From assembly GCF_003334355.1 (NCBI RefSeq), contig NZ_QOWP01000003.1: a stretch of 64,000 nucleotides of DNA; one strand, 5' to 3'. The position numbers were made by a program, and so were the translations under genes. The notes beneath the pieces were generated by a model, which worked only from the letters and a program-made list of their open reading frames with translations, was not told the origin of the DNA and did not search any database. Source of the stretch: Escherichia coli (lineage in GTDB: Bacteria; Pseudomonadota; Gammaproteobacteria; Enterobacterales; Enterobacteriaceae). Below are positions 5,234 to 8,352 of this stretch, in pieces; the first letter of the stretch is position 1; each line of letters begins with the position of its first letter.

Positions 5234-7212
<1,979 letters not shown>

Positions 7213-7214
<2 letters not shown>

Positions 7215-8352
7215 GTCAGAGCCCCTCGATCTCAATCAGTTAGCGCAAAAAATTAAACAGTGGGGGCTGGAACTGGGCTTTCAGCAGGTAGGTATTACCG
7301 ATACCGATCTCAGCGAGTCCGAGCCCAAACTGCAAGCATGGCTGGACAAACAATACCACGGCGAAATGGACTGGATGGCACGTCACGGTATGCTGCGCGC
7401 TCGCCCTCATGAGTTATTGCCCGGTACGCTGCGCGTGATCAGCGTGCGGATGAATTACCTTCCTGCTAACGCCGCATTTGCCAGCACGCTGAAAAACCCC
7501 AAACTCGGCTATGTTAGCCGTTATGCGCTGGGCCGTGACTATCACAAACTTCTGCGCAACCGACTCAAAAAGCTGGGCGAGATGATTCAGCAACATTGTG
7601 TTTCGCTGAATTTTAGACCGTTTGTCGATTCTGCGCCTATTCTCGAGCGCCCGTTAGCTGAAAAAGCTGGGCTCGGCTGGACAGGTAAGCACTCACTTAT
7701 CCTCAATCGCGAGGCCGGTTCGTTCTTCTTTTTAGGCGAATTGCTGGTCGATATTCCGCTGCCCGTGGATCAACCAGTCGAGGAAGGATGCGGCAAATGC
7801 GTGGCCTGTATGACGATTTGCCCGACCGGTGCCATCGTCGAGCCATATACCGTCGATGCTCGCCGCTGTATCTCTTATCTCACCATCGAACTTGAAGGGG
7901 CGATCCCGGAAGAGTTGCGACCGTTAATGGGAAACCGTATTTACGGTTGCGATGACTGCCAGCTTATCTGCCCGTGGAATCGCTATTCACAACTCACCAC
8001 AGAAGAGGATTTCAGCCCGCGTAAGCCGCTACACGCACCGGAACTCATTGAGTTATTCGCCTGGAGCGAAGAGAAGTTTTTAAAAGTCACGGAAGGATCG
8101 GCGATTCGTCGTATTGGTCACCTGCGTTGGCTGCGTAATATCGCCGTAGCATTAGGCAATGCCCCTTGGGATGAAACGATTTTGACAGCGCTGGAAAGTC
8201 GTAAAGGTGAGCACCCACTTCTCGATGAGCACATAGCGTGGGCGATTGCGCAGCAAATAGAGAGACGAAATGCGTGCATAGTCGAAGTGCAATTGCCGAA
8301 AAAACAGCGTCTGGTTCGGGTGATTGAAAAAGGGTTACCGCGTGACGCCTGA
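7213..8352 (+). CDS. queG: Epoxyqueuosine reductase QueG (YjeS), 379 aa
   Basis: ORF track 7105-8352 contains [25 protein letters not shown] from codon 37; start set to that ATG (7213); 4Fe-4S cysteine motifs CGKCVACMTICP present. Confidence 0.9.

What the first reader, a model, noticed from the sequence alone, without database searches (positions are those of the whole stretch)
7212..7215. Divergent genes nnr and queG share the tetranucleotide CATG as overlapping start codons
The queG ATG (7213-7215, plus) and the nnr ATG (complement of 7212-7214) overlap by 2 nt. Both promoters and 5' UTRs must therefore lie inside the other gene's coding sequence and the two mRNAs are antisense over their 5' ends. 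This depends on the annotated starts being the real ones.
Basis: partly seen in the sequence, partly recalled or inferred. Interest (0 to 1): 0.3.

Follow-up and report, generated by a model that had tools for sequence, protein, structure and literature searches.

The report
Head-to-head overlapping nnr and queG starts
Two ordinary E. coli housekeeping genes, nnr and queG, really do begin back-to-back on one shared CATG, with each gene's control signals buried in the other's first codons, but this layout and the resulting antisense RNA overlap are already documented.

Summary
CATG lies at 7212-7215, queG's ATG is 7213-7215 (+) and nnr's ATG is the complement of 7212-7214. RefSeq annotates the same 2-nt overlap in K-12 and the other E. 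coli records inspected.

The overlap is conserved. All 31 Enterobacterales loci with nnr next to queG keep the CATG, and nnr stays in frame in 30 of them. The nnr Shine-Dalgarno GAGGGG is the complement of queG codons 4-5, which use the atypical codons CCC/CCT and CTC nearly everywhere. The internal Met6 is a non-start codon in 16 of 31 loci and has a weak Shine-Dalgarno. queG has no other usable start.

An extended -10 promoter for queG (TGgTATACT, 7173-7181) lies inside nnr codons 12-14. A -10 for nnr (TAAAAT, 7615-7610, minus strand) lies inside queG. Both match published 5' ends, at about 7189 for queG and 7602 for nnr. That gives about 414 nt of antisense overlap.

Published RNase III/p19 and antibody data show double-stranded RNA across this region. 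ExcludonFinder (2025) lists queG-nnr as a divergent excludon.

Direct evidence for the nnr start codon was not found.

The parts
7212..7215 (.). CATG junction: queG ATG (7213-7215, +) and nnr ATG (complement of 7212-7214)
   Evidence: Read directly. Annotated the same way in RefSeq. Conserved in 31/31 Enterobacterales loci.
5667..7214 (-). nnr (yjeF) CDS, 515 aa, bifunctional NAD(P)HX epimerase/dehydratase; first gene of the nnr-tsaE-amiB-mutL-miaA-hfq... operon
   Evidence: ORF. NCBIfam NF007856 1026 bits; the yjeF_nterm domain starts only at residue 17. Operon from Conway 2014, PMC4161252.
7213..8352 (+). queG (yjeS) CDS, 379 aa, epoxyqueuosine reductase
   Evidence: ORF. TIGR00276 510 bits; the domain starts at residue 14.
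7173..7181 (+). queG extended -10 promoter element TGgTATACT (TG 7173-7174, TATACT 7176-7181), inside nnr codons 12-14 (S-I-P) plus the first two bases of codon 15 (His)
   Evidence: TGnTAnnnT (TGnTAWACT in 30 loci, TATAGT in L010) is present in 31/31 Enterobacterales loci, exactly 31 nt before the queG ATG in 29 of them, and in 15/16 other gammaproteobacterial loci with adjacent nnr. nnr codons there are AGT 28/28, ATA or TTA 28/28 and CCA 26/28, against background use of 18%, 6%/10% and 12%. The published delta-PqueG deletion removes 7153-7183 (primers).
7189..7212 (+). queG 5' UTR (about 24 nt, U-rich, no Shine-Dalgarno); transcription start at about 7188-7189
   Evidence: End of the Conway overlap at U00096.2 4392114, which maps to window 7189 (column meaning inferred). 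This is 8 nt after the -10. Anti-SD duplex energy -4.2 kcal/mol, equal to the background mean. The 5' region is less structured than shuffles.
7222..7227 (-). nnr Shine-Dalgarno GAGGGG (complement of queG codons 4-5, CCC CTC), 7 nt upstream of the nnr ATG
   Evidence: (-8.1 kcal/mol, roughly top 10% of background). queG codon 4 is CCC/CCT in 31/31 and codon 5 is CTC in 29/31, whereas elsewhere in queG CCC+CCT make 40% of Pro codons and CTC 15% of Leu codons. queG codons 1-6 have the lowest third-position entropy of 374 windows.
   Evidence: Start-type codon in 15/31 loci and non-start (CTG, AAG, GAG, GAA, TGC, ATT, CGA, CAG, AAT) in 16/31. Weak Shine-Dalgarno, -3.2 kcal/mol. It is the only possible start in L019.
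7610..7615 (-). nnr operon -10 element TAAAAT (read on the minus strand), inside queG codons N-F-R, using the rare AGA Arg codon
   Evidence: It is the only TAnnnT on the minus strand within the first 700 nt of queG that is kept in at least 70% of loci (19/26). AGA makes up 5.5% of Arg codons elsewhere in queG. It lies 8 nt upstream of the published 5' end.
7215..7602 (-). nnr 5' UTR (about 388 nt), antisense to queG codons 1-130; transcription start at about 7602
   Evidence: Conway promoter P 4391701 (U00096.2) for the + strand operon ending at 4408049, as tabulated in the supplement of PMC7373196. No Rfam match. Folding is not unusual.
7189..7602 (.). About 414-nt region transcribed on both strands (face-to-face promoters); double-stranded RNA detected in vivo
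   Evidence: Lybecker dsRNA MS-212 4391717-4392100. p19 clusters 4391754-4392109 and 4391759-4392107. A 22-nt duplex CAUGACGGACCAUACAAUGAAG / UCAUUGUAUGGUCCGUCAUGUC across the CATG. Listed as a divergent excludon.

Best explanation
nnr and queG are a true head-to-head gene pair with no intergenic DNA. Their start codons share the A and T of one CATG, and each gene's expression signals are written into the non-domain N-terminal tail of the other.

The sigma-70 extended -10 promoter of queG (TGgTATACT) is encoded by nnr codons 12-14 plus the first two bases of codon 15. queG transcription starts at about 7189 and gives a 24-nt leader with no Shine-Dalgarno that is antisense to nnr codons 1-8.

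The nnr Shine-Dalgarno (GAGGGG) is the complement of queG codons 4-5. The nnr operon promoter (-10 TAAAAT) lies about 390 nt inside queG. The two promoters therefore face each other about 414 bp apart.

The two mRNAs are complementary over both ribosome-binding regions. They pair in vivo and RNase III cuts the duplex. This is a divergent excludon.

Shown: the sequence anatomy, its conservation, and (from the literature) the transcript ends and the double-stranded RNA. Inferred: that ATG1 is the nnr start used in E. coli, and that the overlap causes reciprocal dampening of expression through polymerase collision and duplex cleavage.
For: Sequence and annotation.

Conservation: CATG in 31/31 loci, with nnr in frame in 30/31. 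The -10 to ATG spacing is 31 nt in 29/31. The Shine-Dalgarno is retained through atypical queG codons. nnr codon 6 is a non-start codon in 16/31. Codon bias at nnr codons 12-14 matches the -10 consensus, while the 'n' of TGn varies and changes the amino acid (P to A or S). queG codons 1-6 are the window most constrained at third positions. An in-frame stop lies 9-24 nt upstream of the queG ATG in six loci, so no other queG start is possible there.

Within E. coli, variation avoids 7120-7232 in the four strains aligned.

Published data: transcript overlap 4391701-4392114, dsRNA MS-212 and p19 clusters; divergent excludon list; placement of PqueG; nnr heads the most complex E. coli operon.
Against: I could not retrieve initiation-site profiling or an N-terminal peptide for nnr or queG.

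Two of the three bases of nnr ATG1 are fixed by queG's own ATG. Conservation of the codon alone is therefore weak evidence; the case rests on frame, Shine-Dalgarno and the lack of alternatives.

L019 has a 1-nt insertion that takes ATG1 out of frame, yet nnr remains open from MKKNP.

The meaning of the columns in the supplementary table is inferred, not read from a header.

Neither promoter has a recognisable -35, and the strict consensus scan found none.

No experiment seen here shows that expression of one gene changes when the other is transcribed.
Confidence: 0.78

Rival explanations
1. In E. coli nnr is translated only from the internal Met6 (MKKNPV, 7199-7197). The coding sequences would then not overlap: 12 nt would separate them, and the CATG overlap would be an annotation artefact of choosing the longest ORF.
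For: ATG is present at codon 6 in Escherichia and Citrobacter. Codon 6 is ATG, GTG or TTG in 15/31 loci. In L019 the CATG ATG is out of frame and MKKNP is the only start. Residues 1-16 lie outside the yjeF_nterm domain, so a shorter protein would be functional. Two of the three bases of ATG1 are conserved by queG anyway.
Against: Codon 6 is a non-start codon in 16/31 loci, and in about 12 of these ATG1 is the only start candidate upstream of the conserved domain. The variation at codon 6 is NTG with all four first bases, as expected for neutral M/V/L exchange. The Shine-Dalgarno for Met6 is weak (-3.2 kcal/mol, against -8.1 for ATG1). The GAGG motif before ATG1 is maintained through atypical queG codons.
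Confidence: 0.1
2. Both nnr start codons are used, giving two isoforms that differ by five residues. The overlap is real but only for a fraction of the protein.
For: Two in-frame ATGs lie 15 nt apart on the same leader in E. coli. L019 shows that the downstream one can suffice.
Against: Met6 has a weak Shine-Dalgarno and is not conserved. There are no data either way.
Confidence: 0.12
3. The architecture is real but functionally neutral. It is a frozen product of genome compaction in the Enterobacterales ancestor. The antisense transcript overlap and its RNase III cleavage are by-products, with no regulatory coupling between queG and the nnr operon.
For: The two genes have no evident functional link. 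Other Gammaproteobacteria keep the same divergent pair, and the -10 embedded in nnr, with variable spacers of 33-112 nt, so the exact overlap is not required. Once established, any indel would frameshift nnr, which alone explains the fixed 31-nt spacing. The nnr operon has seven further promoters.
Against: The dsRNA cluster is among the 20 most abundant protein-coding p19 clusters in stationary phase, so pairing is substantial. ExcludonFinder finds the overlap in at least 50% of 58 transcriptomes.
Confidence: 0.4

Closest known systems
Divergent excludons (5'-overlapping antisense mRNAs of neighbouring genes; Listeria concept, E. coli map in ExcludonFinder, NAR 2025, PMC12288877)
   Same: Face-to-face promoters, long 5' overlap, dsRNA processed by RNase III. 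queG-nnr is itself one of the 16 divergent excludons listed for MG1655 and a top-20 p19 dsRNA cluster.
   Different: Excludon pairs in E. coli have a mean intergenic distance of 95 nt. Here the distance is -2 nt, so both ribosome-binding sites and both start codons lie inside the duplex. Mutually exclusive expression has not been shown for this pair.
Head-to-head (divergent) overlapping protein-coding genes in prokaryotes
   Same: Two opposite-strand CDSs overlap at their 5' ends. This is the rarest orientation class, and its under-representation is attributed to the burden of fitting initiation signals into coding sequence (Kingsford et al. 2007, PMC2174442).
   Different: Many reported divergent overlaps are start-site mispredictions. 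This one holds up to comparative testing and is conserved across an order.
Extended -10 (TGnTATAAT) sigma-70 promoters lying inside coding sequence
   Same: TGgTATACT with no usable -35. The invariant positions T-12, A-11, T-7 and TG are exactly those conserved across genera.
   Different: It is embedded in the opposite-strand gene's N-terminal codons and dictates the peptide motif S-[I/L]-P-[H/Q]. Promoter activity was not measured here.
Noncontiguous operons (Saenz-Lahoya et al. 2019 concept)
   Same: ExcludonFinder lists yjeV-queG-nnr as one of three in E. coli: same-strand yjeV and nnr are separated by opposite-strand queG.
   Different: This rests on RNA-seq coverage only. yjeV is a 17-codon ORF of unknown function, and read-through from glyVXY/datA contributes.

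Membership tests
Head-to-head overlapping CDS pair | Both ORFs are real protein-coding genes | tested here: met
   NCBIfam equivalogs NF007856 (1026 bits, cut-off 703) and TIGR00276 (510 bits, cut-off 200). Orthologues are found across Gammaproteobacteria.
Head-to-head overlapping CDS pair | The queG start codon is the one at the junction | tested here: met
   It is the only in-frame ATG/GTG/TTG between the transcript 5' end (about 7189) and residue 57. In-frame stops lie 9-24 nt upstream in six genera. This is comparative evidence, not experimental.
Head-to-head overlapping CDS pair | The nnr start codon is the one at the junction | tested here: inconclusive
   For ATG1: it is in frame in 30/31 loci, has a conserved Shine-Dalgarno, and is the only candidate in about 12 loci. 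Against: the L019 exception, and no initiation profiling or N-terminal peptide retrieved.
Divergent excludon | Each gene's transcription start lies beyond the other's, so the mRNAs overlap at their 5' ends | tested here: met
   Published ends 4391701 and 4392114 (U00096.2) map to window 7602 and 7189. Each lies 8 nt downstream of a conserved -10 that was found independently.
Divergent excludon | Double-stranded RNA forms in vivo and is processed by RNase III | not testable with these tools
   Literature only: Lybecker MS-212 and p19 clusters S-361/E-284, with paired 21-22-nt reads carrying 2-nt offsets.
Divergent excludon | Expression of one partner lowers the other (mutual exclusion) | not tested
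   No data found. A delta-PqueG strain exists, but nnr operon expression in it was not reported in the passages read.
Extended -10 sigma-70 promoter (queG) | TG one base upstream of a TAnnnT hexamer, with the start 6-8 nt downstream | tested here: met
   TG 7173-7174, TATACT 7176-7181, 5' end at about 7189. Conserved in 31/31 plus 15/16 loci.
Extended -10 sigma-70 promoter (queG) | Promoter activity depends on the motif | not testable with these tools
   Needs a reporter or 5' end assay with a synonymous nnr mutation (ATA13 to ATC).
Shine-Dalgarno-led initiation | A purine-rich anti-SD complement 5-10 nt upstream of the start | tested here: met
   Met for nnr ATG1: GAGGGG at -13..-8, -8.1 kcal/mol. 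Not met for queG (-4.2, equal to the background mean) or for nnr Met6 (-3.2).

The most novel reading that the evidence does not exclude
The roughly 60-bp junction is a selected reciprocal control module rather than frozen compaction. Both ribosome-binding sites and both start codons lie inside the same duplex. Pairing of the 388-nt nnr leader with queG mRNA would then block translation of both and trigger RNase III cleavage, which would tie tRNA queuosine maturation inversely to the nnr-tsaE-amiB-mutL-miaA-hfq operon. A corollary is that the N-terminal peptide of Nnr (S-[I/L]-P-[H/Q]) and residues 4-5 of QueG (P-L) exist only because they are the reverse-complement reading of a promoter and a Shine-Dalgarno.
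Probability: 0.2. Interest if true: 0.4.

Novelty: already known. Interest (0 to 1): 0.2.

Why it matters
It is a clean, well-conserved example of the rarest kind of bacterial gene overlap. It shows concretely how promoter and ribosome-binding signals can be written into the dispensable N-terminal tails of opposite-strand genes. It also shows that such an overlap need not be an annotation error.

It offers unusually tidy separation-of-function mutations. Position 7212 affects only the nnr start and position 7215 only the queG start. Synonymous changes can kill either -10. These make it a convenient test case for what excludons actually do.

It does not open a new question. The annotation, the overlapping transcripts and the dsRNA are all published.

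Tried and rejected
- **Promoter/terminator scan.** The consensus scan of 6700-7800 found nothing. It requires a -35, which both promoters lack; conservation analysis found the -10 elements instead.
- **RNA families and structure.** Rfam search of 7000-9200 gave only the two tRNAs. Folding of the queG 5' region (z = +1.6) and of the nnr leader (z = -0.5) showed no special structure.
- **Alternative queG starts.** The upstream in-frame GTGs at 7168 and 7105 were rejected. They lie upstream of the transcript 5' end and are absent or blocked by stops in other genera.
- **uORF in the queG leader.** The out-of-frame AUG at 7203 is conserved as an AUG (it is the complement of the nnr His4 codon CAT), but the ORF length varies from 8 to 114 codons, so it is not a conserved uORF.
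- **Antisense ORF.** The 60-codon ORF 7596-7414, which starts 6 nt after the nnr transcription start, is broken at codon 11 in most genera. It is a chance ORF.
- **Searches for start-site or 5' end evidence that returned nothing.** TRAINSPOTTER supplements. The Ribo-RET preprint has no supplements held. ExcludonFinder and Conway supplements are not held. Kim 2012 start-site tables. The SMRT-Cappable-seq supplement held only uninformative counts. Nakahigashi 2016 tables. The Cappable-seq GTF was truncated. Thomason 2015, Weaver 2019 and Kroeger 2013 are not held.
- **Solved structures.** The PDB holds no E. coli Nnr structure that could show the N-terminus used.
- **Literature on CATG-type divergent start overlaps.** The search found nothing relevant.

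Full report
**Origin and observation.** The window is E. coli chromosome. A 1-kb query around the site matches all 5426 complete genomes and is 100% identical to strain PSS-12. The sequence at 7212-7215 is CATG. ATG 7213-7215 on the + strand opens queG (MSEPLDLNQ..., 379 aa). The complement of 7212-7214 opens nnr ([15 protein letters not shown]..., 515 aa). NCBIfam equivalog models confirm both identities. RefSeq annotates the same 2-nt overlap in every record I opened, including K-12 (queG 4392928-4394067, nnr 4394066-4395613).

**Are the annotated starts real: queG.** I fetched 80 loci encoding QueG relatives, one per species. In 31 Enterobacterales loci nnr adjoins queG divergently; these include Escherichia, Citrobacter, Enterobacter, Kluyvera, Cedecea, Pantoea, Serratia, Yersinia, Rahnella, Budvicia and Edwardsiella, among other genera. 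All 31 have CATG at the junction. There is no other in-frame ATG, GTG or TTG between the transcript 5' end and residue 57. In six loci an in-frame stop lies 9-24 nt upstream of the ATG. The start is therefore secure.

**Are the annotated starts real: nnr.** Two of the three bases of ATG1 are fixed by queG's own ATG, so conservation of the codon alone says little. Four other observations carry the argument.

- nnr is in frame with ATG1 in 30 of 31 loci.
- A GAGG-type Shine-Dalgarno lies at -13..-8. It is the complement of queG codons 4-5. Those codons are CCC/CCT in 31/31 loci and CTC in 29/31, although elsewhere in the same genes CCG makes 46% of Pro codons and CTG 43% of Leu codons, with CTC only 15%.
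- queG codons 1-6 have the lowest third-position entropy of all 374 six-codon windows, 0.47 against a mean of 1.19.
- The internal Met6 proposed as an alternative is a non-start codon in 16 of 31 loci. In about 12 loci ATG1 is the only candidate upstream of the conserved domain.

Anti-SD pairing energy is -8.1 kcal/mol for ATG1 and -3.2 for Met6, against a background mean of -4.3. One exception exists. L019, a metagenome-assembled genome, has a 1-nt insertion that takes ATG1 out of frame, so nnr there must begin at MKKNP. I could not retrieve any initiation profiling or N-terminal peptide data. ATG1 is therefore well supported by comparison but not experimentally verified here. Sole or additional use of Met6 in E. 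coli keeps a modest probability.

**Promoters.** Upstream of queG, all 31 loci carry TGnTAnnnT (TGnTAWACT in 30, TATAGT in L010; E. coli has TG 7173-7174 and TATACT 7176-7181). The motif lies exactly 31 nt before the ATG in 29 of them. This is an extended -10 element. The invariant positions are the TG and T-12, A-11 and T-7. The free 'n' varies (G, C or A) and changes the nnr amino acid from Pro to Ala or Ser.

On the nnr strand the motif reads S-[I/L]-P-[H/Q] at codons 12-15. Those codons are AGT (28/28), ATA or TTA (28/28) and CCA (26/28). Background usage in nnr is 18%, 6%/10% and 12%. This is a clear nucleotide-level constraint. The same motif occurs in 15 of 16 other gammaproteobacterial loci where nnr adjoins queG, at variable distance. 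The promoter embedded in nnr is therefore older than the CATG overlap.

A scan of the minus strand within the first 700 nt of queG, for TAnnnT kept in at least 70% of loci, gave a single hit. It is TAAAAT at 7615-7610, present in 19 of 26 loci and built on the rare AGA Arg codon (5.5% of Arg codons elsewhere in queG).

**Agreement with published experiments.** The supplement of Huang et al. 2020 (PMC7373196) tabulates three things for yjeS/yjeF, in U00096.2 coordinates:

- p19-captured dsRNA clusters at 4391754-4392109 and 4391759-4392107;
- Lybecker's antibody-captured dsRNA MS-212, labelled 'Divergent', at 4391717-4392100;
- Conway's overlapping transcripts at 4391701-4392114 (413 nt), with promoter P 4391701 for the + strand operon that ends at 4408049.

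I anchored the coordinates on small-RNA sequences printed in the same table (AUUGAGAUCGAGGGGCUCUGA and CAUGACGGACCAUACAAUGAAG). With that anchor the ends map to window 7602 (nnr) and 7189 (queG). Each lies 8 nt downstream of the -10 predicted independently from conservation. The meaning of the columns is my inference, because no header was available.

A paired 22-nt duplex with 2-nt offsets spans the CATG itself. Both strands are therefore transcribed across the junction and pair in vivo. The cluster ranks among the top 20 protein-coding clusters in stationary phase. ExcludonFinder (PMC12288877) lists queG-nnr among the 16 divergent excludons of MG1655, and yjeV-queG-nnr among three noncontiguous operons. 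Kasho and colleagues' delta-PqueG allele removes window 7153-7183, which covers the same promoter. Conway et al. describe yjeF...rlmB as the most complex E. coli operon, with 14 genes and 8 promoters.

**Anatomy.** queG has a 24-nt, U-rich leader with no Shine-Dalgarno (7189-7212), antisense to nnr codons 1-8. nnr has a 388-nt leader (7602-7215), antisense to queG codons 1-130. The broadly conserved domain models start at Nnr residue 17 and QueG residue 14. The signals that overlap near the junction (the queG -10 and leader, and the nnr Shine-Dalgarno) therefore sit in non-domain N-terminal tails. Within E. coli, the 83 nt around the junction are identical in 89% of genomes. In the four strains aligned, no variant touches 7120-7232.

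**Mechanism.** What is shown is two face-to-face promoters about 414 bp apart, complementary 5' regions, and dsRNA cleaved by RNase III. What is inferred is polymerase collision and duplex formation over both ribosome-binding sites, reducing the output of both genes. Whether this is used for regulation or is merely tolerated is open. I give 'neutral frozen compaction' about 0.4. Any indel in the junction would frameshift nnr. Relatives outside Enterobacterales manage with a spacer. The operon also has other promoters.

**Comparison and novelty.** The feature belongs to two known classes. One is head-to-head overlapping CDSs, the rarest orientation class in prokaryotes (PMC2174442). The other is divergent excludons. 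For this very gene pair the CDS overlap is standard annotation, and the transcript overlap and dsRNA are published. The codon-level demonstration that the queG promoter and the nnr Shine-Dalgarno are dual-coded may not be in print, but it is an incremental detail. Verdict: real, correctly interpreted, already known. Interest 0.2.

Noticed in passing
window 8353-8620: The datA locus (DnaA-inactivating sequence) lies between the queG 3' end and the tRNA-Gly genes. It has DnaA boxes at 8366-8374 and 8528-8536 (minus strand), further TGTGGAT-type boxes, and the IHF-site region near 8440-8470.
   Followed up: partly
window 8622-8697 and 8855-8930 (minus): This window has only two tRNA-Gly(GCC) genes, 157 nt apart. 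K-12 and PSS-12 carry three (glyV-X-Y). This looks like copy-number variation of the tandem tRNA array next to datA.
   Followed up: no
window 8335-8388 (minus): The 17-codon yjeV ORF (MRFYFYSQAVDESGVTR) overlaps the queG 3' end convergently by 18 nt. queG is therefore overlapped by opposite-strand CDSs at both ends. ExcludonFinder calls yjeV-queG-nnr a noncontiguous operon.
   Followed up: partly
window 7203-7205 (+): An out-of-frame AUG lies inside the 24-nt queG leader, 10 nt before the queG AUG. It is the complement of the nnr His4 codon CAT. It is present as ATG in 28/31 Enterobacterales loci, but the ORF it opens varies from 8 to 114 codons. It could compete with queG initiation.
   Followed up: partly
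window 7414-7596 (minus): A 60-codon ORF starts 6 nt after the nnr transcription start, antisense to queG. It is interrupted at codon 11 in most other genera, so it is a chance ORF.
   Followed up: yes
L070 (Tolumonas MAG) 2400-2503: Outside Enterobacterales, this Tolumonas locus also has a CATG junction with an in-frame nnr ATG. Its -10 to ATG spacing is 37 nt (31+6). This is either shared ancestry or independent compaction.
   Followed up: no
L084 (E. coli 536), aligned to window 7259-7290: queG of strain 536 carries a cluster of nonsynonymous differences at codons 17-26 (W17G, Q24H, Q25H, V26A) relative to the window, K-12 and SCU-125. This could be an old-assembly error or a real variant.
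   Followed up: no
window 7228-7231: A GATC (Dam) site lies immediately upstream of the nnr Shine-Dalgarno, within queG codons 5-7. ATCGAG is retained in most Enterobacterales loci, probably through the L-D-L codons. Its significance is unknown.
   Followed up: no
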